Of a stretch of DNA of 64,000 nt, positions 1-16,070 are shown in pieces. How positions within the stretch are numbered: position 1 is the first letter of the stretch; each line of letters opens with the position of its first letter. The notes beneath the pieces are model-generated. The model made no database searches and had not been told where the DNA came from. It saw nothing but the letters and a program-made list of their open reading frames with translations. Origin of the DNA: Candidatus Marinacidobacterales bacterium (lineage in GTDB: Bacteria; Acidobacteriota; Vicinamibacteria; Marinacidobacterales; SMYC01); the NCBI GenBank assembly GCA_965224085.1, contig CBDCYI010000005.1:704001-768000 (forward strand), written 5' to 3'. The position numbers and the translations under genes were made by a program.

Positions 1-207
1 CTGCCCTCACCGTTGTTGGGGTTCTGTCACTGAAGCACTTTGAGGCAGTGTGTCCGCGGGAATATGCTGGTGGAAAAGGTCTTCATCACCTAGTTGATCA
101 AGTTCGCGAATCCTACTCATAGGTTTGTCGGATCTTACCTATGCGGCTGTGTCGCCTGGCGCTACTCCTCTCAGATTCGTCGGCCGGCCGATAAGGTGAT
201 GTCTTAA

Positions 208-583
208 GATTCCTGTCAAAGAAAAACGATGTATGGTTCCCCAAGCTCAAACCCGTCCCCGTCATGGGGACAGAAAAGGAGAACCATACATCATGGGAAA
301 GGTACTACCGAGTCAGCGATTGCTCAAGCAGTTCGAGGAACAACTGGTATTTGGGGAGATGAATCTCTCGGAGATCGTCCGGTCGGGAGCTCAGATGATG
401 CTTCAATATGCGTTGGAGCGCGAGGTGACGGAGGCGTTGGGTCGAAACTACTATGAGAACGCTCCGGCAACGACGAAGGAGAAGGGACGACGCAACGGGT
501 ATGAGTCGCATCGGGTCCTCACGGGCGAGGGAGCGGTAACGGTGCAAGTGCCGCGGGTACGAGAAACAGAGAAGGTGTTTCAA
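208..583 (+). mobile_element. IS256-family element (IS256a) left end and 5' transposase fragment (ATG 293)
   Basis: MGKVLPS...LEREVTEALGR...RRNGY...VQVPRVR is the Mutator/IS256 N-terminus. Near-identical copy at 3926-4236. Hairpin gatgtatggttc (228-239)/gaaccatacatc (281-292) flanks the SD. Left-end position is approximate. Confidence 0.8.
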
Positions 584-915
584 CTGCAGTAAGGGAGAAC
601 GCGCGGTAGCGTCGAGCACGCGAAAGCGCGTGAGCGACATCGTTTTGTGCGTAGGTCGCGAGTAAGCCGAGCAGCCGATGAGCCTCGTCCTTGCCGTAGC
701 GTCGCGTGCGCACGAGCTGTTCGAAAAATACGGGTCCATCAGGGCCGAGCTCGGCAAAGCGTGCGGCGAGAAGTTCTACCCGACGTTGCTCGTCACGGCT
801 CGGCCTGTGCTCGGGCGTCGTGAGCTTTTGCTGCGCCCCGGGAGACGCCAACGTGTGACGAGCAAGCTCGGTGAGCTGGGGAGCGTAGACGATGAGCTCG
901 GAGTCGGTGACCCGA
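583..915 (-). pseudogene. IS21-family istA C-terminal fragment (piece 1)
   Basis: Reads ...VTDSELIVYAPQLTELARHTL...RFAELGPDGPVFFEQL...ALSRARRYRAFSLTAVE, which resembles an IstA C-terminus. Confidence 0.6.
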
Positions 916-1020
916 CGTCGAGCACTAACTCGCCATCGCGGTCCTCGATTCGGAATGTGGAAAGCGCGTTCGAGATGATCTTCTGGCGCGTTCCGCCATG
1001 AAGATCCTTCTCATCGATGT

Positions 1021-1199
1021 TCGAGCGCATCCTTTCGGCGCAGGCTCAGCCCAAGTCCGTGATGGACTCGCTCCTAGCCGAAGCCCAGCCACATCTTCGC
1101 CTCCTTGTCGGTGACGAGCCCGTCCTACCGCGCTCCACCGCGGATTATCTTTCTCTGCTGAAGCCTCATGACGGACCCAATGACGAAGAGCCTTCGTGA
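1021..1199 (+). pseudogene. IS21-family istA extreme C-terminus (piece 2, opposite strand)
   Basis: ERILSAQAQPKS...PRSTADYLSLL appears to continue directly from AFSLTAVE of piece 1. Confidence 0.55.
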
Positions 1200-1680
1200 G
1201 AACAGAGAATCGATTCATCGATCCGCAATCCTCGCTCGAGAAGGTCCTGCAACATCGCGGTGCACACCTGAGAGTTCTCCGTCGAGCCCAGCCATATACC
1301 CAGGGGCACCTTCGTTCCATCTATTGTGATACCGAGAGTTACGACGACGGTCTGTCCGGCCACCTCAAGGCCATCCATCATCAGTGCCGCAAGCTCGTAC
1401 TCCTCTAGCCGTCAAGACAGGTATTGCTCGAGCTTCTTAGTCGTCTGGCTCACGAGGTGACGGCTGGCGGCACTCTTGCTCGTGTCACGAGACTTCAACT
1501 TGGCCGCGGGTTTGTCCAGACTCGATTCGTAATTTCGGGTCGATACCCCCACCAAAATCTGATTCAACACTCGCTCTGGAAGCGGGTCTTCTTCGCGGAA
1601 GGCTTTGAAGTGTGGGAGCGACGCCTCCTCGCCAGACTTCGAACGCACTTGAGGTCGCGACACTTGGATTCGACGTGTCC
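1200..1680 (-). pseudogene. IS256-family transposase (IS256b) internal fragment with in-frame stop
   Basis: RPQVRSKSGEE...GVSTRNY...SKSAASR...*...LMMDGLEVAG...LGITIDGTKVPLGIWLGSTEN carries the IS256 DDE region. TAG at 1412-1414. Confidence 0.8.
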
Positions 1681-1717
1681 ACGGAGTTGAGAAAAGCCAG
1701 GAACTTGGGAGGTTTCA

Positions 1718-2007
1718 ATGAAAGACAATAGAATGATTGCCGAGTTGATATCGGAGTTTGTAGCACAGTTGGAGAAGCAGCTGCATGAGCTAAATTCACG
1801 AATTACTACTGTTCTTGCTGAGCCGGAGGCTTCTGAACCGGAGGTTGCTGAGCCAGAGGTTGCTGAGCCAGAGGTTGCTAGCCAGAGGCTTCTGAGTCAG
1901 AGGCTGCCGAACCGGAGGCTGCTGAGCCGGAGGCTTCTGAGCCGGAGACTTCTGAGCCAGAGGTAGACGATGGCGATTCGCAATCCCAGGAAGACCGCGC
2001 AAAGTAA
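1718..2007 (+). pseudogene. small acidic protein with (A/S)EPE(A/V) repeats, frameshifted in repeat 5
   Basis: SD GGAGG precedes ATG 1718. Restoring 1 nt at about 1880 gives an in-frame repeat tail ending at TAA 2005-2007. Confidence 0.5.
1817..1965 (+). repeat. 15-bp tandem repeat x10 (gctgagccrgaggyt)
   Basis: Ten units counted directly; unit 5 (1877-1890) is 14 bp. Confidence 0.9.
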
Positions 2008-2139
2008 TGGACGGCAATAGAACTGAGACAGGGGATAGGCGTTAGTGCATGAAACCTGTGATCCGCAAAAAAGAAGATCGCGTACCGCCTGGATCGACTT
2101 TTTGCGGAGCACAGGAGGTGCCAACGGGCGAGGGAGATG

Positions 2140-2267
2140 TTGGCGAACGGGTTGCTATCTTGTGGTCCTTTCCTTCATGGCGGTGTCTCCTTCCGTAGGT
2201 CCCTTCAGGCCGTGTTTCGACGACGCGGAAGGTTATACTTCCACCTTTACTCTATTTCCACACCTTC
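2140..2267 (-). mobile_element. probable IS256-family left end (pointing leftwards)
   Basis: Minus strand reads gaaggtgtggaaatagagt..., then TGGAAA-N17-TATAAC, a hairpin ccttccg/cggaagg over SD aaggag, and ATG at 2178. Same strand as the IS256b fragment. Confidence 0.45.
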
Positions 2268-2279
2268 TGAGGTAGCTCT

Positions 2280-3650
2280 ATGGACATCGTCCTTGCCTTT
2301 AGCGCGTTGTGCATCTTGCTGGTGGTCGGCAAGATCCTGCGAGTCGAGATCCGCCTGTTCCAGAAGCTTTACCTGCCAGCATCGGTGATCGGGGGTCTGC
2401 TCGGGCTGATCCTCGTCCAGACGATCGGCGGCTTCCTACCCGAAGCGACGACGGCGGGCTGGACTCGGCTGCCAGGATTCCTCATCAACATCGTCTTTGC
2501 GGCCCTCTTCCTGGGAGTCTTCATTCCACCGATCAGACGCATCTGGGGGCTCGCCGGGCCGCAGTTGGCGTACGGTCAAATCGTGGCCTGGGGCCAGTAC
2601 GTCGTCGGCCTTGGGGTGGCGGTCGTGCTTCTAACACCGGTTTTTGACATCCCGGGGGCCATCGGCACCATCATTCCGGTCGGCTTCGAGGGTGGGCACG
2701 GCACGGCCGCTGGTCTGGAGCTGGTCTTCGATGCCTATGCCTGGCCCGAGGGCAGGGACCTAGCCCTCACGTCGGCGACCTGCGGCGTCCTGTTTGCCAT
2801 CATCGTCGGGATGGCGCTCGTCAACTGGGCGGCGCGCCGGGGCTACACCCAGCAACTGAAGCGCATTGAGGACATGCCCGAGAGCAGTATCGTAGGCGTC
2901 TACGACCCAGCCGAACGGCCGAGCGCCGGGAGCCAGACCGTGTCGGCGGCGTCAATCGACAGCCTCAGCTTCCATCTCGCCATCATCGGTCTCGGTGTCT
3001 TCATTGGCTATCTGATCCACAGCGGCTTGGTGCGCGTTGAGCTCCTGGTGCGGTCTCCAAGCGCCGACGGTCGCGCCTTTTTCGACAGTTTCCCGCTCTT
3101 TCCGCTGTGCATGATCGGTGGTCTGGTGGTGCAGGTCTTTTTCGCCAACTTCACCAAGCGCAATCCGCTCGACCATCGTCTCATGCAGCGCCTCTCGGGC
3201 ACCGCCATGGATTTCCTGGTGGTGGCTGCGATCTCGACCATCAATGTGGAGGTGGTGCTGGGGGGGCTCGTGCCCTTGGCGATCCTGGTTGCCGCCGGGG
3301 TGCTGTGGAACGTCTTCTGCGTGGTGTGGCTGGCGCGTCGCCTCTTGCCAGCGGATTCGTGGTTCGAGCGCTCGATCGCCGAGATGGGGCAATCGATGGG
3401 CGTCACCGCCACCGGCCTCTTGCTGTTGCGCGTTGTCGATCCCGAGGGCGACACGGACGCCACCTCGGCCTTCGGTTACAAGCAGCTCATGCACGAGCCG
3501 TTCATGGGCGGCGGGCTGTGGACCAGCGCCGCCATTCCGCTGGCGCTCGCCTACAATCCGGTGTTGGTTCTAGGCATCAGCGCCGGGGCGGTAGCGCTCT
3601 GGTTGCTGGTGTGGGCGCTGTTGTTTCGCGGTCGGCTCGGCCTCGGCTGA
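2280..3650 (+). CDS. sodium/glutamate symporter (GltS family)
   Basis: 456 aa multi-TM protein with GFEGGHGTAA, LPASVIGG and GVTATGLLLLRVVDP motifs. Confidence 0.9.
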   Translation: MDIVLAFSALCILLVVGKILRVEIRLFQKLYLPASVIGGLLGLILVQTIGGFLPEATTAGWTRLPGFLINIVFAALFLGVFIPPIRRIWGLAGPQLAYGQIVAWGQYVVGLGVAVVLLTPVFDIPGAIGTIIPVGFEGGHGTAAGLELVFDAYAWPEGRDLALTSATCGVLFAIIVGMALVNWAARRGYTQQLKRIEDMPESSIVGVYDPAERPSAGSQTVSAASIDSLSFHLAIIGLGVFIGYLIHSGLVRVELLVRSPSADGRAFFDSFPLFPLCMIGGLVVQVFFANFTKRNPLDHRLMQRLSGTAMDFLVVAAISTINVEVVLGGLVPLAILVAAGVLWNVFCVVWLARRLLPADSWFERSIAEMGQSMGVTATGLLLLRVVDPEGDTDATSAFGYKQLMHEPFMGGGLWTSAAIPLALAYNPVLVLGISAGAVALWLLVWALLFRGRLGLG

Positions 3651-3742
3651 ATCGGCACCGGCGGGCGTGGGGTAGGTGCCTGATGGGGTGCTTCCGCCAT
3701 TAAGTGTTGGTGAGATGACGCTAAGATTTTACGGTGCATTAG

Positions 3743-3912
3743 CCCTAATCGAACAATAATTCATGACGCTAGCGCGAGTTCGATTCTTTCAAAGAGTGTC
3801 TGAGTGGAGGAGTTTGTGGCCATTCGGAGCGCGTTTCGACCACTAACGCGAACGAGGCGGCCGGCTTTGTTGATGATGCGGAAGCGGATGGTGCAGATGG
3901 TGTTCAGCAGAT
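3743..3912 (-). mobile_element. IS1380-family transposase C-terminal fragment and right end
   Basis: Minus frame reads ICTIRFRIINKAGRLVRVSGRNALRM...ALAS*; stop at 3761-3763. Confidence 0.6.
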
Positions 3913-3925
3913 GGGTGCATGTACG

Positions 3926-4585
3926 AGAAAAGGAGAACCATACATCATGGGAAAGGTACTACCGAGTCAGCGATTGCTCAAGCAGTTCGAGGAACAACTG
4001 GTATTTGGGGAGATGAATTTCTCGGAGATCGTCCGGTCGGGAGCTCAGATGATGCTTCAATATGCGTTGGAGCGCGCGGTGACGGAGGCGTTGGGTCGAA
4101 ACTACTATGAGAACGCTCCGGCAACGACGAAGGAGAAGGGACGACGCAACGGGTATGAGTCGCATCGGGTCCTCACGGGCGAGGGAGCGGTAACGGTGCA
4201 AGTGCCGCGGGTACGAGAAACAGAGAAGGTGTTTCAGTCAAAGATTCTCGACGCCTACGTGAGCCGGACCGAGAAACTCGATGAACTGATCGCGCGGATG
4301 TACGTCCACGGGATGTCGACGCGTGACATTGAGGCGACGTTCGCGGACGTGCTGAGCGGCACGGGTGTCTCGAAGTCGGTGGTGAGCCGGGTCACACGGT
4401 GTCTGTCGGAGGATTTCGAGGCGTTTCGAAAACGGGATCTCTCGAACGAGAAGCTGTTGTATCTCGAGCTCGACGGCACGTACCTGCGCTACCACCAAGG
4501 AGCGGAGAGGAAAGAGCCCATCCTCGTTGCTACCGGCTATCGCGCTGATGGGACGCGAGATCTTCTTCATATCGGTGTCGGCAAC
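3926..4585 (+). pseudogene. IS256a transposase 5' half (second copy, ATG 3947), 3'-truncated
   Basis: GMSTRDI, SKSVVSR and LDGTY...ILVATG motifs; ends at GN where recombinase DNA begins. Confidence 0.85.
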
Positions 4586-5289
4586 AGACCGGGGACCGGC
4601 TGACGCCGAGCCACACCAAAAAGAAAAACGGGCAACGGCTCCGCTACTACGTCTCCCGGCGCCTCATCCAGCACAGTGGCCAAAAGGAGACCTCTCCGGC
4701 TGGCGCCTGCCCGCCCCGATGCTGGAACAGACCGTCGTGCATCTCATCCGACAGCATGTGGATGCCACGACCTTCTCGGCCTCGCTGACCCATACTCCGA
4801 CGATGCAAGAGCTCGCCTCGGTGCGTCGCTTTTTAGACGGGCTGTGTTCCGGCAGTAACAATGATAGTGCCTCGGTAGCCCCCCTGCTCCGTCTTATCCG
4901 GCGGGTCGATATCAGCCCCGGCTCTGTGTCCATCCTGCTCGACCGCAATGCGTTCGCTGCTTGCCTGTCTATGGGGCCCCCGACCGCATTCGCGAGGATG
5001 CACTCCGCATCCACGCACCGTTCCGCTTGCGTCGACGCGGCGTCGAGACCAAGCTCGTTCTGGGCAACCCCACGAAATCCGTCGACCGCACACTCCTGCG
5101 CAATATCAGAAACGCCCTCTCCTGGCTCGACCGAATCAAAGCAGGCAAAACCTATGAGCAGATTGCCACCGAAAACGCCATCCCAACGGACCGCGTGCGC
5201 AAGGCAATCCGCTATGCCTTCCTGGCCCCCGACATTGTCCGCGCCATTGTCGAAGGTCGCCAGCCCGTTGGGCTGACCTCGAGCTACCT
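4586..5289 (+). pseudogene. 3' half of large serine recombinase (diverged, frameshifted duplicate of about 12390-13089)
   Basis: Near-identical DNA to the intact gene, with indels at about 4688 and 4975-4980. Confidence 0.9.
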
Positions 5290-5461
5290 GTGCCTTCTAT
5301 TTATTCAGACGCGCGCCCCGAACTTGATTAGTTTCCAGTCTACCGGCACCCAATGCCTGCACGATTTAGTCATTTGTTCGCGCTCTCATCCCTGCTTTCA
5401 AGACTCGTCGCGAGCACCCGGCCGTCTCGCGCTTCTTAGGCCGTCCTGTGCCAAAACTCGG

Positions 5462-6064
5462 AGCTGGTAGTCATCAAGATGGACGCCGACATTGGCGAGG
5501 ATATCGTCCGTAGCAAAATGCGGACGCTTGGCATTTCCCGTAATCGATTCGACGAGCTCTGTAAAAAGCGAAGAGCAGCACGATTTGTGGCGAATAGCGC
5601 GCACCTTCCCGCTGATAGAAAAGAAACTCTTGATCGGTGCTGTATCCGGCAGTGCCTCCGTTGATCACTTCCACCGGACATGTGCCTTACCGGTTCAGCG
5701 TAGTTTCTAGCACCTGGGTCACCGTTCGCTCGATCGGCACCGTATAGGCTTCGAGGAACGAATCACCGAGCGCCAGAATCCGCGTAGTGCCGGCAGGCAC
5801 TGCATACCCCCGGTTCGGATCGCGCAACCCGAGCGAATTGATCGCCACCTCGACTGTGTATTCACGACGCCGATAGGTGACGCGGGTGTTGGGTGTGTGC
5901 CTCCAGCCGAGCACCGGATCGAATTCGTGGTATCGCGTGACCTCCGCGGCTTCCTTCCCCGCCCCTCGAAACATGCGCTCCACCCGCGCCACGCCTTCCA
6001 TTGCGAGCAGGGTGATGGCGACCGACGCGACAGCGAGCAACAGCTTGAAGAACAGCGATTTCAT
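5462..6064 (-). pseudogene. SGNH/GDSL hydrolase-family membrane-anchored protein, internal stop and 3' truncation
   Basis: N-terminal TM, DPVLGW, INSLGLRD, ILALGDSF, then TAA 5687-5689, then EVINGGTAGYSTDQE. Confidence 0.8.
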
Positions 6065-6339
6065 GAATTCCGGTCTCTCGAGCTTCAGCGGATTATAGAT
6101 GAGCCCGGCGAGTTGTGCTTGGCCTGACTTGCCGTTTGCCGGTCCGCTGCCGCCCGGCCCCCGGTTCAGCACCCGGCTCCCCTATTTGGCGCAAATGTGT
6201 CCCTCGGAAATCGAGATTAGAGACCAAATCCGAAAATGAGGCCCGTTCCGCCCTTCTAGCGCGTCTCTGGTGCCACCTAATCCTGGAAAACCCCGCCAAC
6301 CGCGCGGAAAATCTCACCCGTCTCTGCAGGGCCACAATC

Positions 6340-6586
6340 GGCCAGACTGGGTGGCGGATGGGGCAGTTTGGAGCTATCCGGTCTCGGCTGAAAACCATCA
6401 ATAACAGGGAATTAACAGGGAATTTGGGCCATTTTTTGCCGATTCGGCCGTTTTTCACGTGATAACTCTCTATATTTCAAATGGTTAGATGGCAATTCCC
6501 TGTTCCGAAAGAACAGGGAATTTGAAATAGGCGAACAGCGAATTGCTCTGGGAAAACAGGGAATTGAGATGAGCGAACAGGGAAAT
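6340..6586 (+). repeat. tRNA-3'-like remnant followed by AACAGGGAA(TT) repeat array (element end)
   Basis: TGGCGGA at 6352. AACAGGGAA at 6403, 6414, 6512, 6555, 6576; variant AACAGCGAA at 6534; inverted copy at 6496. Confidence 0.75.
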
Positions 6587-6761
6587 ATCACGAGCAGCAC
6601 GTGAGGGGTTCAATTCAAAAGAGTTCCATCTCCGACCTGGGGCAAGAATGTCCGGGTCGTCGTTCCGAACGCTGTTCACTCCGGTGCTAACGGCACGTTT
6701 CTCGTATGAGCCGCCATAGGGTTCACGCGTGTGTCTGCCCGCTGCCGACGTGACTGATACA

Positions 6762-7055
6762 ATGGGGCTTCGGGGCAAGCGTCTCAGGCTTTCTGACGAC
6801 GATTGGCGCAGGCTCGCCGTCAAGGCCCAGGCTTTGGGGCCGCGAGGCGCTGGCCCCGATTGCGTCCGTTGCCACATCCGCTACGCTTCTGCGCTGGTAC
6901 CGCTACCTCATCGCAGCCCCAAGTACGATGGCAGCAAGAACCGGAGCCCAGGCCGACCTCCGACGGCGAAGGACATCCGTGAGCTCATTGTACGCGTGGC
7001 GCAGGCGAACCCGACATGGGAATATACGCGCCTGCGGGGCGCACTCAAGAACCTC
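6762..7055 (+). pseudogene. rve-integrase (IS481/IS3-like) transposase N-terminal fragment
   Basis: GKRLRLSDDDWRRLAVKAQALG, (T)LLRWYR, KYDGS...PGRPP...ANPTWEYTRLRGALKNL; frameshifted. Confidence 0.75.
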
Positions 7056-7120
7056 AAACACAGACACTAAGCTGCTGATTTATAGTCTATTTCAAAAGGG
7101 CCGAGTTTTGGCACAGGACG

Positions 7121-8084
7121 CCGTGGCCCGTTGGCATCGCGACCGATTCCGACGGTACTGGGCAAAGATCTCGCAGCGCCGCCACCCCGGTCGACCTCGG
7201 ATTGATGCCGAGATTCGTCGCCTCGTCCGCACGATGGCGCAAGACGGCTGGGGGGCGCCACGCATCCATGCTGAGCTCACCAAGCTCGGTTTCATCATCT
7301 CCGAGAGCACGGTGTCGCGATACCTGCCGCGGCGTCCCGCGGAGCCCGACCAGCTGAAGCGATGGATGGCTTTCTTGCGCAACCATAAAGACGATATCGT
7401 CGCCATGGATCTGTTCACCGTGCCCACCGCATCGCTCCGGCTGCTGTACGGCTTCTTCGTCATCGAGCACGGCCGTCGGCACATCGTTCACTTCAACGCC
7501 ACGTTCCACCCGACGTCTGCTTGGGTTATTCAGCAACTGCGTGAGGCGTTTCCCTACGACACCGCTCCGAAATATCTCATCTTAGATCGCGACTTTATCT
7601 TTAGCGCTACGGTCATCGAGTTCATCAAGGCAACGGGCACAAAACCCGTTCGCACTTCGTTTCGCAGCCCATGGCAAAACGGAACCGCGGAGCGGTGGGT
7701 CGGCAGTTGCCGTCGCGAGCTCCTTGAGCACGTCGTGGTTCTCAGCGCATGTCATCTCATCCGGCTCGTGCGAGCTTACATCAGCTACTATCATGAGGAC
7801 CGTTGCCACTTGGGGCTGAACAAGGACACACCGAGCTTGAGAGCGGTCACGCACCGACCGTCTCCTACGGCGAAAGTCGTCGTACTGCCGCGAGTCGGTG
7901 GACTGCACCACCGATACGAGTGGCGAGAGGCAGCCTGAGTCAGCTTGGTCGCTCGCGTTACTCGGCTGGTCGCCGAGAAGTTCGTCCTCAGCACCTTCCC
8001 TCGCGCGCTGACCACGCTCTCCAGCATGGGTTTGAGGGCGGTCCGGGCCTAGATCCAGTCCCGGACTAATAATGATGATGGACA
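7121..8084 (+). mobile_element. rve-integrase IS, 5'-truncated transposase (stop 7938) plus right end
   Basis: WGAPRIHAEL, MDLFTV, ILDRD, SPWQNGTAERWVGSCRRE and GGLHHRY motifs; ends ataatgatgatggaca. Confidence 0.85.
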
Positions 8085-8127
8085 GACGGAAGAAACCTAT
8101 CGCTCCGCTCAACGCGTTGCAGAACAG

Positions 8128-8690
8128 TTGGAAGAGTCGGGCTTGACCGAGCCTGTGAAGCGAGCGAGTACGGAGAGGATCGCCGCGGATTTTGCGCACT
8201 TTCTCGTCCTCACCAAGAAAGTCATCAACCAAACCCAACGCCGAGTGATCGACGAAGAGCGTGTGCCTGCAGAGGAAAAGGTCGTTTCTGTCTTCGAAGA
8301 ACACACCGACATTATTCGCAAAGACCGGCGCGAGACCCTCTACGGTCACAAGGTGTGTCTGACTGGTGGTTCGTCCTCGATGATTTTGGATTGCGTGATC
8401 TTGGATGGGAATCCGGCCGATTCAACTCTCGCGGAAACCATGATCGACCGTCAAGTCGAACTCTACGAGCGGGCCCCGCGCCAGGTCGCCTACGATGGCG
8501 CGTTTTCTTCAAAGGCAAACTTGGAAGCCATCAAAGGCAAGGGAGTTGAAGATGTTGCCTTTACCAAGGCTCAAGGTTTCGCCGTGACCGATATGGTCAA
8601 GAGTTCCTGGGTCTATCAACGCCTGCGGCGATTTCGCTGCGGGATCGAAGGCGTCATTTCGTTCTTGAAACGAGTCTTTGGTCTCGACCG
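8128..8690 (+). pseudogene. ISNCY/IS5-like DDE transposase internal fragment
   Basis: EKVVSVFEEHTDIIRK...YGHK, GNPADS, VAYDGAF and RFRCGIEGVISFLKR motifs. Confidence 0.8.
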
Positions 8691-8693
8691 ATC

Positions 8694-8933
8694 GTCACGC
8701 CCCGACCATCACCGACCGCAAAAGTCGTCGCGTTGCCGCGAGTGGGTGGGCTCCACCACCGCTACGAATGGCGCGACGCCGCCTGAGCCAGTTTAGTCGC
8801 TCGCGTTACTCGGCTGGTCGCCGAGAAGTTCGTCCTCAGCAGCTTCCCTCGCACGCTGACCACGCTCTCCAGCATGTGCTCGAGGGAGGTCCGGGCATGG
8901 AGTCCAGTCCCGGATTAATAATGATGATGGACA
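8694..8933 (+). mobile_element. second, diverged 3' end of the rve-integrase IS
   Basis: VTPRPSPTAKVVALPRVGGLHHRYEWRDAA* plus a tail of about 146 bp matching 7939-8084. Confidence 0.9.
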
Positions 8934-9034
8934 ACCGACTCGACCCTCAAAACGTCCTACATGAAGACGACCAAAGCATCCTGGTTGCAGGCAGTTCGCC
9001 GATCTCCTGCAACTCGAGTTTATGGAAAGGACAC

Positions 9035-10075
9035 CTATGATGGAGTACCTACTCCCAGACAGCAACGGTGGAACTCCCCCAAGTTGACTGGCTCAACCGG
9101 ATCAGCCAGGCTCAAGTCCGAGCGAAATCGCAGTTGTGACACCCCTGGGGGACAGTCCCCCGACGGACGCGGAATGTCCGCTACCTGGTAGAACGCGAGC
9201 GACTCGACGGCAACGTTCCAATCACCGGAAAATGTTCGACCCGCGCCAAGATCCTGACCGAGGGACTGGGCGCAAACCCGTTCAACCTTTAGGCGGGCCT
9301 CTGCGCTTGGAGCTGCATCGACCACTCTGTCCCATAGGTATCCAAGGGATTTTCCATTCGTCTGTTCCTCGACATGTACCGAGGCAATGAGAACGGATGC
9401 CCTGCTGGGCGGATACACTTGTTCGAAACTGAACATGTGCTCACGTGACCGCATGGACGACGACTTGACCTCAAGTCGCTCGCTTCCTAGACTGAAGTCG
9501 AAGTGCTCCATTGACTGGCTGTGCCACGCGCCGATCATTGCACCAAACATTGACTGGCTGTGCCACGCGCCGATCATTGTAGCCGGATCGCTCGTGGAAA
9601 GGATAACGAAAAGCTCTGCCCACAGCCCATGAATAGTCCGTTCCCGTGGTTTTCCAACAAGCCTGAAAAGCACAACTAGTCGATCAACAAGGTCAACCAA
9701 ATCCTTCGCTTTTACGTGCCCGTCCAATCCCACCAACACACCGCCAATTGTGCGCAGAAAGCACGCCTGCACGGCCGAATCGCTACTAAGACACTGGATA
9801 ATCGAGTACCTTGCGATCTCTACGCCACCGCCTTGTCGAGAAACACTGCAGCGCACGTTGTGCTCCACTCGCAAGTTTGCCAAATCTACCCCCAGCGGTT
9901 TGTCGCGCCCCACCGGCGCATCCACGGCAACAAGTACGGCGGGCAGCCCGCTCTCGCTTTTCGCAATTCGCCATTGATCTCGACCTGGAACCGGTCGCGC
10001 GTCGAACGTGTCCTCACAAGCTGAATCGGCCTGCGGCGCGTTTAGCTGCTCGAAGATCGCTGGCAAGTCCTCCAT
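9035..10075 (-). CDS. PD-(D/E)XK nuclease-motif protein (DUF4420-like)
   Basis: GLWAEL, W...HFDF...LEVKSS...H.FSFEQ motifs; lies directly downstream of a Z1 gene. Confidence 0.8.
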   Translation of the reverse strand: MEDLPAIFEQLNAPQADSACEDTFDARPVPGRDQWRIAKSESGLPAVLVAVDAPVGRDKPLGVDLANLRVEHNVRCSVSRQGGGVEIARYSIIQCLSSDSAVQACFLRTIGGVLVGLDGHVKAKDLVDLVDRLVVLFRLVGKPRERTIHGLWAELFVILSTSDPATMIGAWHSQSMFGAMIGAWHSQSMEHFDFSLGSERLEVKSSSMRSREHMFSFEQVYPPSRASVLIASVHVEEQTNGKSLGYLWDRVVDAAPSAEARLKVERVCAQSLGQDLGAGRTFSGDWNVAVESLAFYQVADIPRPSGDCPPGVSQLRFRSDLSLADPVEPVNLGEFHRCCLGVGTPS

Positions 10076-10090
10076 GGCATAGAACTCCGG

Positions 10091-11074
10091 TCAGTCCGTG
10101 TCTTGCGGCTGCACAATTAAATCCTGCCGCACTTGCGGCGCCATCCATATAGTTGCGAACTTCACCTCCTCGGCGACGATTGGGCTGCCTGCCTCGCGGC
10201 CCGCGCGAAGCGTGACCGTGTGAAGTTGCACTGTCACCGCTGCGTCTCGCAACTCGCGATCTCCGGGATACACATCCCGTGTATCCACAGGGTAGGCCCC
10301 CTGAAACAAGTTCACGATCCGACCGTCCCGCACTAGCCGCCGCGTCGCTGCGCCCGGACGCATTCGGTATACCGTACAGCACGCCCCATCTTGGTTCTCC
10401 GCAACATAGCGGTCAATCAGAATAAGCGCCAACGTCCAAGTCTCGCCATCCTCTACGTTAACCTTGAGATGGGTAAGGAGTTCGTCGTATACCACACTGA
10501 GCGGAACTCCGCGCGCGACCAAATGCCTCTGGTGGTCCTGCCGATCAGCGTGGCCCTCGTCGGGCACAAACCTGGCTTCATGGCGTTTCACAAAGGCCTC
10601 GACAATACCTCGGTTCGCTGCGACATCCGCGTCATGCGGCTCACGTGGCATGCACCAGCCAGAGCCAAAAGTTGTTCGCATATAGTCGATATCAATAACG
10701 GACTGCCGTGTTGGTCGGAACGCTTGGTCGAGCAAGAACACGCGCCTGAATTCCGACAGTGGCCGTCTGCTGCCGATGTGGGCTATCAACCGCGCGCGCA
10801 TGTCCTCCTCGTGACGCACATAGCTCCTGTATAGGTGCACAACGCCCGGTTCAAGAAAAACCCGGCAATACCCCAGATACGGTCGCTTGTATCCCAAGAA
10901 TCTCGCGCGCTGCTGGATCGTGTCCGCGTTTCCCACGCCCGGGCCGCGCGGCATGTACGTCACTGTCAGTCCTTCAATGGTAAAACCGCGGTCGAGAACT
11001 TGCCCACCGACCAAGATCCATGAGTAGTTTCGCCTCCAGTGAATGTTGCGGTCCGCGTCCGCAAGCGAGTTCAC
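10091..11074 (-). pseudogene. Z1-domain protein, C-terminal part only (5' truncated)
   Basis: ILVGGQVLDRGFTIEGLTVTYMPR...ADTIQQRARFLGY is the Z1 signature; N-terminal part absent. Confidence 0.85.
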
Positions 11075-11091
11075 CAGCCCGAAACGTCGGT

Positions 11092-11487
11092 TTGGACGGT
11101 TTGGACTTCGCCAGCTTACGGCGGGTCTGGGAGCAAACCTTTGGGGCTACTCCTCCAAGCTCGCTCTCGTGCGTTTTCCTGCGCCGTGTTCTGGCGTACG
11201 AACGCCAGTGCCGGACCCATGGCGGGCTTTCGGCCGCAACCCGGCGCGCTCTGGCTGCCATGGCGAACGAGACACCAAGCCCCGGCGCTCCCGCAGAATC
11301 CGTTTCTGCCGGCACCCATCTCGTCCGCGAGTGGAATGGCCGTACCTACCAGGTCGAGGTAATCGACAACGGCTATCGGTTCGATGGCAAAACCTATCCG
11401 TCCCTCACGGCCATCACAAAGCAAATCACCGGCACCCACTGGTCAGGACCACGCTTTTTCGGTCTGACGCCCAAGCGCAAGGCCTAA
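11092..11487 (+). CDS. DUF2924 domain protein (native start possibly lost)
   Basis: LAYERQ...GGLS, GTHLVREWNG and YPSLTAITKQITGTHWSGPRFFGL motifs; stop 1 nt before the recombinase ATG. Confidence 0.85.
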   Translation: MDGLDFASLRRVWEQTFGATPPSSLSCVFLRRVLAYERQCRTHGGLSAATRRALAAMANETPSPGAPAESVSAGTHLVREWNGRTYQVEVIDNGYRFDGKTYPSLTAITKQITGTHWSGPRFFGLTPKRKA

Positions 11488-11488
11488 C

Positions 11489-13150
11489 ATGAAGAAAATC
11501 CGCTGTGCCATCTATACGCGAAAGAGCGCGGAAGAAGGTCTCGAGCAGGAGTTCAACTCCCTCGATGCGCAGCGAGAAGCCTGCGCCGCGTATGTCGCGA
11601 GCCAGAAAGCAGAGGGCTGGGTGCTGCTGCCAACCGTCTACGAGGACGCGGGGCTCTCGGGAGGAACCCTGGAGCGCCCAGGCCTGCAGCGCTTGCTCGC
11701 CGACATCGACGCAGGTCTCGTCGAGCAGATCGTGGTCTACAAGGTCGACCGGCTGACCCGTTCCCTCTCCAACTTTGCGAAGCTCGTCGAGCGGCTCGAG
11801 GTGGCCGGCGCGGTTTTCGTCTCGGTGACTCAGTCCTTCAACACCGCGACCAGCATGGGACGACTGACGCTGCATATGCTGCTGTCCTTCGCACAATTCG
11901 AACGCGAGGTCACGGCCGAGCGGATCCGCGATAAGGTCGCTGCCTCCAAGCGCAAGGGACTATGGATGGGCGGCCGCGTACCGCTCGGCTATGAGAAGGA
12001 CGAGCGCACGCTGCGCATCAACGAGGCTGAGGCCGAAACGGTCCGGACGCTCTATGCGCTGTACCGGAAGCACGGAACGCTCCGGCAGGTGAAGGCCGAC
12101 GCGGACCGTCTGAGACTGCGTACCAAGCAACGCTTCGCCGCTGATGGAACCCGGACAGGCGGGCTGCCGTTCCGTCGCGGACACCTCCACTGCCTGCTGA
12201 CCAATCCTCTCTACGCCGGCCGCATCCGGCACCAGAGGCGTGTCTACGAGGGCCAGCATCCATCGATCATTGCTCCGGAGCTCTGGGACGCGGTCCAAAC
12301 GCAGCTGCAGGCAGGGGCTGCCAAACCAAGGAGACGCACGACGAAGGGCCGCGTAGCCCGTTCCCCACTGGCAGGCAAGCTCTTCGACGAGACCGGGGAC
12401 CGGCTGACGCCGAGCCACACCAAAAAGAAAAACGGGCAACGGCTCCGCTACTACGTCTCCCGGCGCCTCATCCAGCACAGTGGCCAAAAGGACCTCTCCG
12501 GCTGGCGCCTGCCCGCCCCGATGCTGGAACAAACCGTCGTGCATCTCATCCGACAGCATGTGGATGCCACGACCTTCCCGGCCTCGCTGATCCACACTCC
12601 GACGATGCAAGAGCTCGCCTCGGTGCGTCGCTTTTTAGACGGGCTGTGTTCCGGTAGTAATGATGATAGTGCCTCGGCAGCCCCCCTGCTCCGTCTTATC
12701 CGGCGGGTCGACATCAGCCCCGGCTCTGTGTCCATCCTGCTCGACCGCAATACGTTCGCTGCTTGCCTCTCTATGGGACCTGACCGCATTTGCGAGGATG
12801 CACTCCGCATCCACGCACCGTTCCGCTTGCGCCGACGCGGCGTCGAGACCAAGCTCGTTCTGGGCAACCCCACGAAATCCGTCGACCGCACACTCCTGCG
12901 CAATATCAGAAACGCCCTCTCCTGGCTCGACCGAATCAAAGCAGGCAAAACCTATGAGCAGATTGCCACCGAAGACGCCATCCCAACGGACCGCGTGCGC
13001 AAGGCAATCCGCTATGCCTTCCTGGCTCCCGACATCGTCCGCGCCATTGTCGAAGGCCGCCAGCCCGTTGGGCTGACCTCGAGCTACCTCTTGCATCATC
13101 CGCTTCCCGACGATTGGGAGAAACAGCGAGTGCTCGTCGCAACGCTGTGA
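11489..13150 (+). CDS. large serine recombinase (resolvase + recombinase domains)
   Basis: CAIYTRKS catalytic Ser, FNSLDAQRE, VYKVDRLTRS, FAQFERE and NPLYAG motifs. Confidence 0.95.
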   Translation: MKKIRCAIYTRKSAEEGLEQEFNSLDAQREACAAYVASQKAEGWVLLPTVYEDAGLSGGTLERPGLQRLLADIDAGLVEQIVVYKVDRLTRSLSNFAKLVERLEVAGAVFVSVTQSFNTATSMGRLTLHMLLSFAQFEREVTAERIRDKVAASKRKGLWMGGRVPLGYEKDERTLRINEAEAETVRTLYALYRKHGTLRQVKADADRLRLRTKQRFAADGTRTGGLPFRRGHLHCLLTNPLYAGRIRHQRRVYEGQHPSIIAPELWDAVQTQLQAGAAKPRRRTTKGRVARSPLAGKLFDETGDRLTPSHTKKKNGQRLRYYVSRRLIQHSGQKDLSGWRLPAPMLEQTVVHLIRQHVDATTFPASLIHTPTMQELASVRRFLDGLCSGSNDDSASAAPLLRLIRRVDISPGSVSILLDRNTFAACLSMGPDRICEDALRIHAPFRLRRRGVETKLVLGNPTKSVDRTLLRNIRNALSWLDRIKAGKTYEQIATEDAIPTDRVRKAIRYAFLAPDIVRAIVEGRQPVGLTSSYLLHHPLPDDWEKQRVLVATL

Positions 13151-13199
13151 GCCTGCCAGCTGCATCTGCCAGCGCCCACTCCGTGAATGGGCTCGGTTA

Positions 13200-13975
13200 G
13201 CAGCAAGCTGCTCTCCGAGGGGACGTACTTGTCGGGCGTGAATAGCCGCGGGATCCGCAAAGCGCTGAAACCACTGCTCGGTGAGGAGCACCTATCGAAG
13301 ACCGCGGTGTCTCGCGTGGTTAGCCGGCTGAAGGAGCGCTTCGAGGAATGGCAGAACCGTACTCTCAGCGAGGAGGTCTACGCGATCGTTTACCTGGACG
13401 GCTTCCACCTGAAAGTGCGGATGGCGAAACGTGTGATCAGCGTACCCGTACTGGCCGCGCTCGGGGTCGCGCCAGACGGGCAGAAACGTCTGTTGTCATT
13501 GCGTCTGGCGGTGAGCGAAGCCTCGACGCATTGGGGCTCCGTGCTGGAGGGACTCCAGGCTCGAGGACTCCGGGCTCCCAAGCTAGTGATCAGCGACGGC
13601 CACAAGGGGCTGATGAAAGCGCTGGAGAAGTGGCCGGGGTGCCGGTTGCAGCGATGTACCGAGCACAAGCGCGCCAACTTGCTCGAACATTGCCCGGCGC
13701 ACGCACGCCGTGAGTTCCGGCGTGACTACAACCGGGTCGTCTACGCCAAGAACGGGATCGCTGCTCGCAAAGCTATGACGAGCTCGTCGCCAAGTGGACG
13801 CCTCTCGCGCCGGCCGTCGTCCGAAGCCTAGAGGAGGCCGGTAATCAGCTGCTGACCTTCTACGAATTCCCTCGTGCCATGTGGAAATCGATTCGAACGA
13901 CCAATGCTCTGGAGAATCTCAACCGCGAGTTTCGACGCCGGACGAAAACCCAAGCGTCGTTCTCCAGCGAGGAGA
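13200..13975 (+). pseudogene. IS256-family transposase (IS256c) fragment, frameshifted about 13778
   Basis: VYLDG, ISDGHKGL, QRCTEH and IRTTNALENLNREFRRRT motifs. Confidence 0.85.
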
Positions 13976-14145
13976 GCAGCAAGGTCACGCCCTTGGCGGC
14001 CAGGATGCGCAGGATGGCGTTGACGATGGTCGTCTTGCCCACACCCGGCCCGCCGGTGATGACCAATGCCTTGGAGGTCAGGGCCAGGCGAACCGCATCG
14101 GCCTGGCTTGCCGCCAGCGACAGGCCCGTCTTCCCCTCGACGGTA
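13973..14145 (-). pseudogene. RecD2-like helicase fragment
   Basis: LAASQADAVRLAL...VITGGPGVGKTT (Q motif and Walker A). Confidence 0.8.
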
Positions 14146-14249
14146 TTGTCAAGTTGAGGTCTCAAGCTCGAAGCGGGCCGCTAGATGATGGGGCTTGAGC
14201 GCATGGCGTTGCCAATATCTTGGGGTCGGATCGGCCCTGAATGCCTCAA

Positions 14250-14790
14250 GTGAACAAACCGCCTAGAAGGCGGTGGCTTCAAGGGCTGTCAATTGGAAAT
14301 TGACTGTCGTCGTGAAGAGGCTCGCCATCCTGGGAGTCTAACTCCTACCATCTCGTCCGTTATGCTTCCTGAACTCACCGCCAGATATCCTCGGGCCCAG
14401 AAGTGCCGGCCCCAAAACTTCTTCCTCAGGTGAGCAAACTCCTGAAGGAGTACTCGGGAGCTTATTCCTTTTAGCCACTGCACGATCGTACTCAAGGTCC
14501 TGGTGTGGTCGGTAGGATACGAACACGTGGACGTGGTCGCGTGCAACCTTACCCGAGATTATGTGCAGCTCATGTTCCATCGCGATCTGACGAATCAGAT
14601 CGCGCACACGAACCGCTACTGGACCGATCAAAACCTTTTTACGATATTTCGGTATCCAAACGATGTGCGCTTTTAGGTCCGTTTTCGTGTGCGCTCCGTG
14701 CCTGTAGTGACGCACGCGACCACAATACCACGATCTTCTCTTCGCCTAAAGGCGAGGGGTTTCGACCATCCCCGGAAGAGACACTAATAA
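14250..14790 (-). mobile_element. tnpA: IS200/IS605-family element, tnpA pseudogene (about 14279-14715), no tnpB
   Basis: HIVWIPKYR, DHVH (HUH), LKGISSR and FWARGY motifs with frameshifts. Subterminal hairpins at 14259-14275 and 14738-14759. Confidence 0.9.
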
Positions 14791-14814
14791 GAAACTCAGG
14801 GTGTAGCGTTTGGG

Positions 14815-15901
14815 TGCCTTGGTGCACAACTCGCGATCTCGGTCCACAATTGTCCTGTACTCGCGGATACGAGGTTCCCCATGAGCATTTTCAAACGCAC
14901 TCAGCGGAAGTATGTGAAGAAGGCCTATCGCGTGAGGAATTGGCGTGAATATGAGGCGGGTCTACGCAACCGTGGGAGCCTGACCGTCTGGATCTCGCTC
15001 ACCGCCGGCAAGCTTGTGAACTGGGACGCGCCCCGGCCAAGGAGGAGGAAACCGGGCCGTCAACGCAAGTACTCGAACCACGCCATCGAGACGGCTGTCA
15101 CCCTGGGCATGGTGTTTCATCTGTCGTCTAGGCAGAGCGAGGGATTGCTGCGATCGTTGTTCGCTCTGATGAAGCTAGACAATGATGTGCCCGATCACAC
15201 CACGATCTCGAGGCGCAAGGCGAAGCTGGGTAAGGTCCCCTTCTACCAAGACAAGCAGAAGACGCCGTTGCACATCTTGATCGACAGCAGCGGTCTCGCT
15301 GTCCACGCCGGCCAGCTGCGCAGAGCACCAAATAGCAGGGACTATCGCAAGCTCCATCTGTGTGTCGACGAGCAGACTGGCGAAGTCGTCGCCTGCGAGC
15401 TGACGAGCAAAAGAGCCCGCGATTCATCGCGGGTAGCATCGCTTGTCGGACAGATCGACAGTCCCATCTCATCGGCCAGAGCTGACACCGCATACGACGC
15501 CAGCGGCGTCTATGAGGCCATCGAGAATCACAGCGCTCATCGCTCGCCGAGGGTGCTGATACCGCCGCGCAAGGGCGCCCTGCTCGCATCGGGGCCGGCG
15601 AGCAGCCGACAGCGCAATCGCAACATTGCAGCACAAGCTCGGCTCGGCAAACGAAAGTGGCACACAGAATCGGGCTACAGCAAACGGAGCAAAGTCGAGA
15701 CAACGTTCCATCGCTACAAGGCTATCGTGGGCTCAGCGATGCGAGCGAGAGGGTTGGCGGCACAGAGAGTCGAGGTAAGGATCGGGTGCAAGATTCTCAA
15801 CACCATGACGGCGCTCGGGATGCCTGATAGCGAGATGATCGGATGATGGGAGTCGGGGCCAAGCGAGCTCTCGGCCTCTATCGGAGTTGTGCACCAAGGC
15901 A
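14815..15901 (+). mobile_element. IS5-family (IS903-group-like) element, 1087 bp
   Basis: 18-bp TIR tgccttggtgcacaactc/gagttgtgcaccaaggca; second copy at 61471-62557. Confidence 0.95.
14881..15846 (+). CDS. IS5-family transposase
   Basis: [43 protein letters not shown] and YSKRSKVET motifs. Confidence 0.95.
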
Positions 15902-16070
15902 GCGAGTTGCTGCAAACGAGCTCGGCAAATCCATCGGTGCGATGGACCGGCGTCAGTTTGTGAGGCCGCATCTCGAAAAGACGCACCGAAACGCCCCGAA
16001 GCGCGGTTTGCCAAGCCGCTTCCGCCCCCTCAAGGCCAGCACCAACGACCGTAACGAACGGAATCTCCAC
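15902..16070 (-). pseudogene. trmFO: TrmFO (Gid) N-terminal fragment truncated by IS5
   Basis: [14 protein letters not shown]...LFEMRP...AELVCSNSL; follows topA. Confidence 0.9.

What the first reader, a model, noticed from the sequence alone, without database searches (positions are those of the whole stretch)
208..15901. 16-kb mosaic of spliced mobile-element fragments (possible MGE archive)
About 20 pieces of 0.1-1 kb are butted together in mixed orientation, mostly cut inside genes rather than at IS ends. They include three IS256 types, istA, IS1380, two rve-type IS, ISNCY, IS200, a serine recombinase, recD2, SGNH and Z1. One junction shows a short microhomology against the intact copy (aga at about 4585); another is inferred (agagc at about 13975). 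Frameshifts and stops are frequent here but almost absent from the adjacent 45-kb core, which argues against uniform sequencing error. Ordinary nested insertion leaves IS ends at junctions, and most junctions here lack them. Inference: either a microhomology-joined graveyard or a locus that collects invader fragments, loosely like a piRNA cluster or silencing memory.
Basis: partly seen in the sequence, partly recalled or inferred. Interest (0 to 1): 0.7.

Follow-up and report, generated by a model that had tools for sequence, protein, structure and literature searches.

The report
Decayed mobile-element graveyard, sponge acidobacterium
This 16-kb stretch really is a patchwork of broken mobile-element pieces, but it is ordinary genomic debris from elements jumping into each other and then being trimmed by deletions, and it is one of many such patches in this sponge-associated bacterium.

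Summary
Window 195-15905 is a patchwork of about 28 segments from at least 12 mobile-element families, plus remnants of host and defence genes. It is the right end of a roughly 42-kb repeat-rich block.

I counted 29 junctions. Fourteen carry a natural element end. Eight join two internal points. Seven cannot be classified. So "most junctions lack IS ends" is overstated; about half do.

At the eight internal joins the overlaps are 3, 0, 0, 1, 0, 1, 0 and 2 bp, which is chance level.

Deletion is shown directly:
- One internal join is an 836-bp deletion inside a single IS481-like copy.
- A Dcm-HATPase-Z1-DUF4420 cassette that is intact in a relative is cut here.
- One dead junction recurs at 7 loci of a sister genome, with differing outer truncations.
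- The right border is an IS5 that split trmFO; the other half lies 931 kb away.

The locus is not special. 180 of 693 10-kb bins are similarly broken. Fragment strand is unbiased (150 + / 141 -). There is no Piwi gene. Ku and LigD are intact.

Verdict: an ordinary mobile-element fossil bed made by nested insertion, deletion and IS-IS recombination. No evidence points to an archive function. Most junctions lack direct read support.

The parts
195..582 (+). IS256 type B, 5' end. Natural left terminus at 195, cut internally at 582.
   Evidence: Pfam and NCBIfam IS256. 99.5% identical to a G003 copy that is contiguous and carries a 447-aa open frame. Flanks of the two hits starting at 195 differ.
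583..1201 (.). Unique sequence of unknown origin.
   Evidence: No other copy in the genome. No family hit. All four laid runs carry a different left neighbour at 583 (table 5).
1202..1675 (-). IS256 type A, internal fragment, both ends cut.
   Evidence: NCBIfam IS256 profile positions 35-192. At both ends the 4-6 other copies continue with shared sequence.
1676..2157 (+). Fragment of a repeat-containing gene family (15/30-bp tandem array at 1816-1963), both ends cut.
   Evidence: The join at 1675|1676 shares 3 bp exactly (8 of 9 imperfectly) between the two parents.
2158..3686 (+). Module with an intact 459-aa gltS-like membrane protein gene (2271-3647).
   Evidence: Weak Glt_symporter/gltS hits, well below the NCBIfam cut-off. 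Unique in this genome. 98% identical copies exist in G002 (1) and G003 (2), with other neighbours.
3687..3738 (+). Terminal stub of a 6-copy repeat.
   Evidence: Six hits start at 3687 with unrelated flanks.
3739..3925 (-). Terminal 187 bp of a 1517-bp IS1380-family element. Natural terminus at 3739, cut at 3925.
   Evidence: 98.4% identical to four copies. The full copy C11:714662-716178 encodes an IS1380 transposase on the opposite strand.
3926..4582 (+). IS256 type B, internal fragment, both ends cut. Overlaps the first copy (3926-4236 = 272-582).
   Evidence: Blunt joins at 3925|3926 and 4582|4583.
4583..5289 (+). Internal 0.7-kb piece of the large serine recombinase gene, both ends cut.
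   Evidence: 96.7% identical to 12390-13089. The other 4-5 copies continue on both sides.
5288..5415 (+). 5'-terminal 128 bp of an IS481-like element (type a).
   Evidence: 25 hits start here with unrelated flanks. Maps to the 5' end of C2:4115-5743.
5560..6135 (-). Complete 576-bp two-copy element of unknown family.
   Evidence: 100% identical to C11:978355-978930, which lies in reverse orientation; the flanks differ. A contig of run X12 spans exactly 5560-6135.
6143..6764 (.). Fragment of a 10-17-copy repeat (6143-6409), then low-copy sequence.
   Evidence: No family hit.
6765..7120 (+). One IS481-like copy (type b). It lacks its first 239 bp and carries an 836-bp internal deletion at 7054|7055. 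Natural right inverted repeat ends at 7120.
   Evidence: 6765-7054 and 7055-7120 map collinearly to positions 464-750 and 1587-1652 of the reference copy L049. 59 hits end at 7120 with unrelated flanks.
7116..8084 (+). IS3/IS481-type rve element, 5' cut, natural 3' end.
   Evidence: 96.3% identical to contig C8:340-1328. rve_3 and IS481/IS3 hits.
8087..8692 (+). ISNCY internal 606-bp fragment, both ends cut.
   Evidence: NCBIfam ISNCY profile positions 217-419 of 444. 72-74 copies continue on both sides. 94.7% identical to copies that are 99.7% alike among themselves.
8693..9033 (+). Two stubs. 8693-8939 is the 3' end of a second rve element. 8941-9033 is the 3' piece of an IS481-like element ending in a natural terminus.
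9034..11078 (-). Remnant of a defence cassette: DUF4420 (9038-10090, open) and the C-terminal half of a Z1-domain protein, cut at 11078.
   Evidence: Pfam. In G003 the homologue (92% identity) is an intact Dcm-HATPase-Z1(734 aa)-DUF4420 row. Contigs of runs X9 and X12 run through both borders as one record each (8971-11120); in X14 two overlapping records do.
11079..13218 (+). DUF2924 plus large serine recombinase element. Both frames are open. It lacks 68 bp on the left and at least about 106 bp on the right.
   Evidence: Pfam and NCBIfam. Boundaries taken from full copies.
13219..13974 (+). IS256 type C internal fragment (about positions 423-1179 of 1328).
   Evidence: The join 13218|13219 is also present at 7 listed loci of G002.
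13975..14141 (-). Internal piece of a RecD2-like helicase gene.
   Evidence: NCBIfam RecD2 profile positions 307-364 of 713. 96% identical to part of a 532-aa frame in G002.
14142..14814 (-). Low-copy element (14142-14249 and 14788-14814) split cleanly by a full-length but frameshifted IS200 (14248-14787).
   Evidence: A parent copy reads straight through the insertion point. Y1 transposase lies in two frames. Indels relative to contigs of other runs (table 4).
14815..15905 (+). Full-length IS5-family element with an open 351-aa frame. It forms the right border.
   Evidence: 40 full copies at a median 98.9%. The 9-bp duplication GCGAGTTGC is shared with C5:1651275-1651283, next to another IS5 copy.
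15906..16094 (-). 5' end of trmFO, cut off by the IS5.
   Evidence: NCBIfam TrmFO profile positions 6-57 of 441. In four relatives the gene runs on into the homologue of C5:1651289-1650947.

Best explanation
This is a fossil bed of mobile elements in the chromosome of an uncultured, sponge-associated acidobacterium. I see no sign of a device. It formed in three ordinary ways.

1. Elements inserted into DNA that was already dead, including into each other. This leaves natural element ends at junctions.
2. Deletions of tens to thousands of bases then removed element ends and neighbouring genes. This leaves blunt or nearly blunt joins between two internal points. The likely route is end joining of broken DNA (the genome has intact Ku and LigD genes) or another kind of illegitimate recombination. 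That route is inferred.
3. Homologous recombination between dispersed copies of the same IS moved whole flanks. This is shown for the right border.

Older blocks, dead junctions included, were also duplicated or exchanged as parts of larger pieces. Selection does not remove such debris quickly in this lineage, so it piles up in many places.
For: SHOWN
- Nested insertion. IS200 sits cleanly inside a low-copy element whose other copy reads through the insertion point. IS5 carries a 9-bp target duplication. 14 of 29 junctions carry a natural terminus.
- Deletion inside one element. 6765-7054 and 7055-7120 are collinear parts of one IS481-like copy that lacks 836 bp.
- Deletion into genes. The Z1 gene is cut at 11078, whereas G003 keeps the whole Dcm-HATPase-Z1-DUF4420 row. 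A RecD2-like gene survives as 167 bp, against a 532-aa frame in G002.
- Progressive erosion. The composite with the 13218|13219 join occurs at 7 listed G002 loci that end at 13317, 13396, 13806, 13916 or 13974, and it extends further on both sides in G002 than here.
- IS-IS recombination. trmFO is split by IS5. Its halves now lie 931 kb apart, each beside an IS5 copy, while the gene is continuous in G001-G004.
- Age structure. Young families are mostly intact: ISNCY has 62 full copies and 23 fragments at 99.7% identity. Old families are almost only fragments: IS481a has 1 full copy and 130 fragments at a median 91.8% identity and 95 bp.
- The pattern is genome-wide. 15.3% of bases are repeated, and 180 of 693 10-kb bins have 20 or more break points.
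- The sequence exists in other samples. The unique middle part has the depth of the neighbouring core in three runs of three studies, and contigs cross two junctions.
- Ku, a neighbouring ATP-dependent ligase and two LigD polymerase-domain genes are intact.

INFERRED
- That end joining made the blunt joins.
- The order of events.
Against: - Only two of the 29 junctions (about 9034 and 11078|11079) are crossed by independent contigs. At 583 all four laid runs show a different left neighbour. Raw long reads were not available.
- Seven junctions could not be classified because one partner is unique.
- Terminus calls rest on whether flanks of other copies agree. This can mislead for families with only 2-6 copies or for copies that are segmental duplicates.
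- Microhomology was read by eye from eight alignments.
- The breakpoint-rich territories used were defined by break-point density, so the concentration of old fragments in them is partly circular.
- In this block fragments lean to the + strand (15 to 6). That is not significant among eight territories, but it is not nil.
- Deletion cannot be told apart from capture of loose fragments at breaks for pieces whose neighbours are unrelated on both sides.
Confidence: 0.82

Rival explanations
1. Fragment capture. The short internal pieces were never whole elements here. They were loose DNA pieces (excised or broken element copies) ligated into chromosome breaks by Ku/LigD end joining, so the block grows by capture rather than shrinking by deletion.
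For: - Ku and LigD genes are intact.
- Seven of the eight internal joins share 0-2 bp.
- Several pieces (4583-5289, 8087-8692, 13975-14141) are internal on both sides and sit between unrelated neighbours.
Against: - Where history can be read, it is deletion: the 836-bp loss inside one IS481-like copy, truncation of a cassette that is whole in G003, and differing outer truncations of one shared composite in G002.
- Captured pieces of active elements should be near-identical to them. The ISNCY piece is 94.7% identical to copies that are 99.7% alike.
- The one 100%-identical piece (5560-6135) is a complete small element with its own ends.
Confidence: 0.08
2. Assembly or amplification artefact. 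The joins are chimeras made while assembling a repeat-rich metagenome, or by chimeric reads.
For: - The genome is a 12-contig assembly whose small contigs are almost pure repeat, and several mosaic blocks sit at contig ends.
- Only two junctions are crossed by independent contigs, and at 583 four runs show another arrangement.
Against: - Contigs of runs from three other studies cross about 9034 and 11078|11079 at single-copy depth.
- The 13218|13219 join is present in an independently assembled closed genome, G002, at 7 listed loci.
- The same kind of patchwork is seen in G002.
- Contigs of about 2 Mb in a genome that is 15% repeat suggest long reads, each of which would span several junctions. 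This is inference; the read type is not known to me.
Confidence: 0.05
3. Functional archive. The block is a dedicated locus that stores invader fragments and yields guide or antisense RNAs that restrain the matching elements, loosely like a piRNA cluster.
For: - Many families are represented by fragments in one place.
- There is a mild + strand excess in this block (15 to 6).
- RNA output is untested.
Against: - No Piwi-domain gene in a genome that is 95% complete.
- No Rfam family in 1-17000.
- No strand bias over 291 fragments (150/141).
- There are dozens of such blocks, not one.
- Content is dominated by old, nearly extinct families, while the active ISNCY, IS5 and IS200 families have 34-62 intact copies and so are evidently not restrained.
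- Host genes in the block are eroded in the same way.
Confidence: 0.03

Closest known systems
Degraded IS 'fossil record' of host-associated bacteria, as described for Wolbachia (Cerveau et al. 2011, PMC3205602; abstract and matched passages read)
   Same: - Most copies are non-functional. That paper reports 71% of IS copies as pseudogenised or truncated.
- IS copies are split by nested IS insertions (18 cases there).
- Copies are degraded by substitutions and deletions.
- Ages are bimodal: old eroded families beside recent bursts.
- The organism is host-associated.
   Different: - This is a 6.9-Mb (or larger) acidobacterium from sponges, not a reduced intracellular genome.
- The debris is packed into dense blocks where pieces of about 100-700 bp abut directly.
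- Large serine recombinase elements and group II introns take part.
- Blocks, including a dead junction, are shared with sister species at higher identity than core genes.
Deletional bias and pseudogene decay in bacteria (Mira, Ochman and Moran 2001; Kuo and Ochman 2009/2010). Recalled, not read here; the latter is cited within PMC3205602.
   Same: Neutral DNA is lost through deletions of many sizes. Host genes and elements are truncated alike.
   Different: Here decay is slow enough, or input high enough, that a thick layer of debris persists.
Bacterial Ku/LigD non-homologous end joining, as studied in mycobacteria (recalled, not read here)
   Same: The genes are present and intact. The joins have 0-3 bp of overlap, as such repair gives.
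   Different: No experiment or polymorphism links these particular joins to that pathway. The overlaps are also what chance gives.
Eukaryotic piRNA clusters
   Same: A dense mix of fragments from many transposon families lies in a few regions.
   Different: There is no Piwi or Argonaute gene, no strand bias and many loci. Content is old rather than active families, and RNA output is unknown.

Membership tests
Mobile-element fossil bed (nested insertion plus deletional decay) | Pieces are homologous to complete elements found elsewhere. | tested here: met
   Full copies exist for IS1380, ISNCY, IS256 types A and C, IS481 types a and b, IS5, IS200 and the recombinase element. An intact IS256 type B exists in G003.
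Mobile-element fossil bed (nested insertion plus deletional decay) | Clean nested insertions, where the host element continues on the far side. | tested here: met
   IS200 lies inside the 14142-14814 element. IS5 lies in trmFO with a 9-bp duplication.
Mobile-element fossil bed (nested insertion plus deletional decay) | Internal joins explained by deletion. | tested here: met
   An 836-bp intra-element deletion at 7054|7055. The Z1 cassette and the RecD2-like gene are truncated relative to relatives. For five of the eight internal joins, deletion is inferred only.
Mobile-element fossil bed (nested insertion plus deletional decay) | Fragment-only families are older than intact ones. | tested here: met
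   IS481a fragments have a median 91.8% identity and IS481b 93.9%, against 98.5-99.7% for ISNCY, IS5 and IS200 full copies.
piRNA-cluster-like guide archive | An Argonaute/Piwi-type effector is present. | tested here: not met
   PF02171 finds nothing in the genome (95% complete); the control genomes respond.
piRNA-cluster-like guide archive | Fragments are oriented on one strand. | tested here: not met
   150 + against 141 - over 291 fragments. In this block 15 against 6, which is not significant among eight blocks.
piRNA-cluster-like guide archive | Long precursor transcript and small RNAs. | not testable with these tools
No Rfam hit.
piRNA-cluster-like guide archive | One or a few dedicated loci. 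| tested here: not met
   180 of 693 10-kb bins have 20 or more repeat break points. Larger blocks lie at C5:1.84-1.99 Mb and C9:0.49-0.59 Mb.
Ku/LigD end-joining products | The pathway genes are present and intact. | tested here: met
   Ku at C4:72726-73268 with a ligase next to it, and two LigD polymerase-domain genes, all without stops.
Ku/LigD end-joining products | Junction signature (0-4 bp overlap, occasional filler). | tested here: inconclusive
   Overlaps are 3, 0, 0, 1, 0, 1, 0 and 2 bp, with 2-bp and 7-bp fillers at 8085-8086 and 6136-6142. This is compatible, but equal to the chance expectation of about 0.7 bp.
   The mean is 0.9 bp over eight joins. Only 1675|1676 has more (3 bp exact, 8 of 9 imperfect).

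The most novel reading that the evidence does not exclude
These dense debris blocks, which in two closed sister genomes appear concentrated in territories of one to a few megabases, are not passive. They could act as transposon sinks or as sources of antisense RNA that damp transposition. Their blunt internal joins could record repeated capture of invader fragments by Ku/LigD repair, which would make them a primitive, effector-independent memory of mobile DNA.
Probability: 0.04. Interest if true: 0.8.

Novelty: already known. Interest (0 to 1): 0.22.

Why it matters
As a mechanism it is ordinary. It shows that a free-standing, large-genome sponge symbiont keeps a thick and readable fossil record of mobile elements, which most bacteria purge.

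That record can be used to date bursts of transposition. It can also be used to measure the size spectrum and junction signature of spontaneous deletions in an uncultured organism.

It also explains why such genomes break into contigs at these blocks, and why annotation there is full of gene fragments. Assembly and annotation pipelines should expect this pattern in sponge-associated Acidobacteria.

Tried and rejected
- Family searches on short frames (40 aa or more) of the unexplained stretches 560-1230, 1650-2200, 3660-3960, 5270-5580, 6120-7130 and 8680-9050 gave nothing with NCBIfam. Only a weak IS21 side-hit lies under the rve element.\n- I tested whether 5288-5415 and 7055-7120 are the two ends of a transposon carrying the gltS-like gene, as the arrangement in relatives first suggested. 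The ends share only 8 bp. Mapping on reference elements shows they belong to IS481-like elements, and in the relatives the second one is the start of a different copy. Rejected.\n- I first read the 576-bp piece at 5560-6135, which is 100% identical to C11, as a captured gene fragment. It has its own ends in both places and assembles as a separate 576-bp contig in run X12, so it is a small complete element.\n- My first estimate that the recombinase element is about 5 kb was wrong. The shared flanks are segmental duplicates, and the unit is about 2.3 kb.\n- No tRNA gene lies in 1-20000 and no Rfam family in 1-17000.\n- Tandem Repeats Finder missed the 39-bp duplication in DUF4420. It was seen in the read table and in the sequence.\n- Parts of the stretch without listed long contigs say nothing about the other 27 junctions.\n- Literature searches for a description of this pattern in sponge Acidobacteria and for DUF2924 with serine recombinases found nothing specific. 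One search found the Wolbachia study.

Full report
WHERE AND WHAT. The window is G000:C5:704001-768000 of a 6.87-Mb, 12-contig genome with 60% G+C. Earlier notes of this scan call the organism an uncultured marine acidobacterium with real gene decay. The public runs that hold the stretch are mostly sponge metagenomes. 15.3% of the genome is repeated.

THE OBSERVATION. BLAST of window 1-17000 against the genome gave 465 non-self hits. Their end points pile up at about 30 sharp positions. Pfam and NCBIfam name the pieces. Where a piece is too short to name, its full-length relative elsewhere does. The pieces are:
- three IS256 types;
- an IS1380 end;
- IS481/IS3-type rve elements of at least three kinds;
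- an internal ISNCY piece;
- a frameshifted IS200 and a whole IS5;
- a DUF2924 plus large serine recombinase unit, and a second internal piece of it;
- a 167-bp RecD2-like piece;
- DUF4420 plus half of a Z1-domain gene;
- the first 60 codons of trmFO.

An intact gltS-like gene (2271-3647) and a few unique stretches lie between them. istA and SGNH were not found. Repeat-rich sequence continues to about 26 kb left of the window, interspersed with intact cellular genes that have paralogues elsewhere. The neighbouring core is well preserved: 92.6% lies in long open frames, against 68% of the mosaic.

JUNCTIONS. For each fragment end I asked whether the other copies of that family continue with sequence they share with one another (the end is cut) or with unrelated sequence (the end is a natural terminus). 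I refined this by mapping pieces onto reference copies and onto relatives.

Of 29 junctions between 194 and 15906:
- 14 have a natural terminus on at least one side.
- 8 join two internal points: 1675|1676, 3925|3926, 4582|4583, 7054|7055, 8692|8693, 11078|11079, 13218|13219 and 13974|13975.
- 7 are undetermined because a partner is unique. In 6 of these the known side is cut.

So roughly half of the junctions lack an element end, not most. For families with only a few copies the call is weaker.

OVERLAPS AT THE INTERNAL JOINS. I read these from the parent alignments. They are 3 (8 of 9 imperfect), 0, 0, 1, 0, 1, 0 and 2 bp, a mean of 0.9. Random sequence would give about 0.7, so there is no excess of microhomology.

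The intact IS256 of this type in G003, and a contig of run X1, read CGA there, while the recombinase parent reads AGA. The join is therefore blunt at 4582|4583.

EVIDENCE FOR INSERTION, DELETION AND RECOMBINATION.
- Insertion. IS200 sits inside a low-copy element whose sister copy reads straight across the site.
- Insertion and recombination. IS5 is flanked on the right by GCGAGTTGC, and the same 9 bp precede another IS5 copy at C5:1651284. In G001-G004 the sequence right of window 15899 continues directly into the homologue of C5:1651289-1650947. So IS5 inserted into trmFO, and later recombination between IS5 copies separated the halves by 931 kb. The mosaic's present right neighbour is therefore not its original one.
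- Deletion within an element. 6765-7054 and 7055-7120 are collinear parts of one IS481-like copy that has lost 836 bp.
- Deletion into genes. G003 keeps a complete Dcm-HATPase-Z1(734 aa)-DUF4420 row at 92% identity, and here it is cut within Z1. G002 keeps a 532-aa helicase frame, of which 167 bp remain here.
- Erosion in steps. The blunt join 13218|13219 is present at 7 listed G002 loci whose right ends differ (13317 to 13974). One G002 copy extends further than the window on both sides. A dead junction has thus been copied or transferred and then trimmed independently.

THE LOCUS IS NOT SPECIAL.
- 180 of 693 10-kb bins have 20 or more repeat break points. Larger blocks lie at C5:1.84-1.99 Mb and C9:0.49-0.59 Mb.
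- Ten families give 291 fragments, 150 on one strand and 141 on the other.
- Young families are mostly whole: ISNCY has 62 full copies at 99.7%, IS5 has 40 and IS200 has 34.
- Old families are nearly all debris: IS481a has 1 full copy and 130 fragments at a median 91.8% identity and 95 bp; IS481b has 1 full copy and 61 fragments.
- 101 of 130 and 51 of 61 of those fragments lie in eight blocks. Those blocks were chosen by break-point density, so this last figure is partly circular.

IS IT REAL? Only contigs of short-read runs could be laid. In X9 and X12 (two studies) one contig covers 8971-11120, crossing the joins at about 9034 and 11078|11079. In X14 (a third study) two overlapping contigs do the same. 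Their depth (17-30) is close to that of the core (35-46). At 583 all four runs have a different left neighbour, an inverted copy of 1022 onward. The other junctions are neither supported nor contradicted.

The occurrence of 13218|13219, and of the same style of patchwork, in the independently assembled G002 argues against chimeras. Raw long reads were not available.

THE ARCHIVE IDEA.
- There is no Piwi-domain gene.
- There is no Rfam family and no tRNA gene.
- There is no strand bias, and there are many loci.
- The content is old families, while the active ones thrive.
- Host genes are eroded in the same way.
- RNA output is untested.

Ku, an adjacent ligase and two LigD polymerase-domain genes are intact. 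End joining is therefore a plausible maker of the blunt joins, but this is inference.

COMPARISON AND VERDICT. The closest description in print that I read is the degraded IS record of Wolbachia: 71% non-functional copies, nested insertions, bimodal ages (PMC3205602; abstract and matched passages). Searches for the same in sponge Acidobacteria found nothing specific.

The finding is a real, well-preserved but ordinary mobile-element graveyard. The microhomology and collector readings are not supported.

Noticed in passing
window 15897-16094 and G000:C5:1650947-1652390: trmFO is split by an IS5-family insertion with a 9-bp target duplication. The two halves now lie 931 kb apart, each next to an IS5 copy. 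The gene is continuous in four relatives.
   Followed up: yes
window 11079-13218; G002 and G003: The roughly 2.3-kb DUF2924 plus large serine recombinase unit has only a few copies here but dozens of listed matches in each of the closed sister genomes G002 and G003. It behaves like a compact transposon-like element. Its ends and target site were not worked out.
   Followed up: partly
G003:C1 7.49-10.20 Mb; G002:C1 0.29-1.30 and 8.63-9.11 Mb: Matches to the mosaic cluster in megabase-scale territories of the closed sister genomes: 65 of the 72 G003 rows that I counted by hand in the listing lie in 7.49-10.20 Mb. The list shows only the best matches and is dominated by one family. This assembly (6.9 Mb against 9.2 and 10.2 Mb) probably lacks much of the equivalent territory.
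   Followed up: partly
window 195-582, 2158-3686, 8085-8692, 11079-13974 versus 15899-18462: Mobile modules, including the dead junction 13218|13219, are 96-99% identical to G002 and G003, while syntenic core DNA is about 88-92% identical. This suggests recent exchange of such blocks between species.
   Followed up: partly
window 9509-9547: A 39-bp in-frame tandem duplication (32-bp repeat plus 7 bp) inside the DUF4420 gene. It is absent from contigs of runs X9, X12 and X14.
   Followed up: partly
window 5560-6135 and G000:C11:978355-978930: A 576-bp element of unknown family in two 100% identical copies. One end lies next to a hairpin-like inverted repeat in the C11 copy. No protein family hit.
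   Followed up: partly
G000:C5:2148284-2155234 (L053): A full IS256 type A copy is flanked and invaded by group II introns (three reverse transcriptase/maturase frames). The '1121-bp repeat' with about 10 copies is a group II intron piece.
   Followed up: partly
G003:C1:7628552-7634771 (L042:4552-10771): An intact four-gene defence-type row: C-5 cytosine methylase, HATPase_c_3 protein, Z1-domain protein and DUF4420. Only the last one and a half genes survive in the window.
   Followed up: yes
window 583 and 1022: In all four laid runs a contig joins 583 to 1022 on opposite strands. In those populations 583-1021 would be bracketed by an inverted repeat that the window lacks on the left.
   Followed up: no
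G000:C5:682099-682554 (L001:8099-8554): A lone Cas2 (type I-E kind) frame among IS fragments in the left part of the same repeat-rich block.
   Followed up: no
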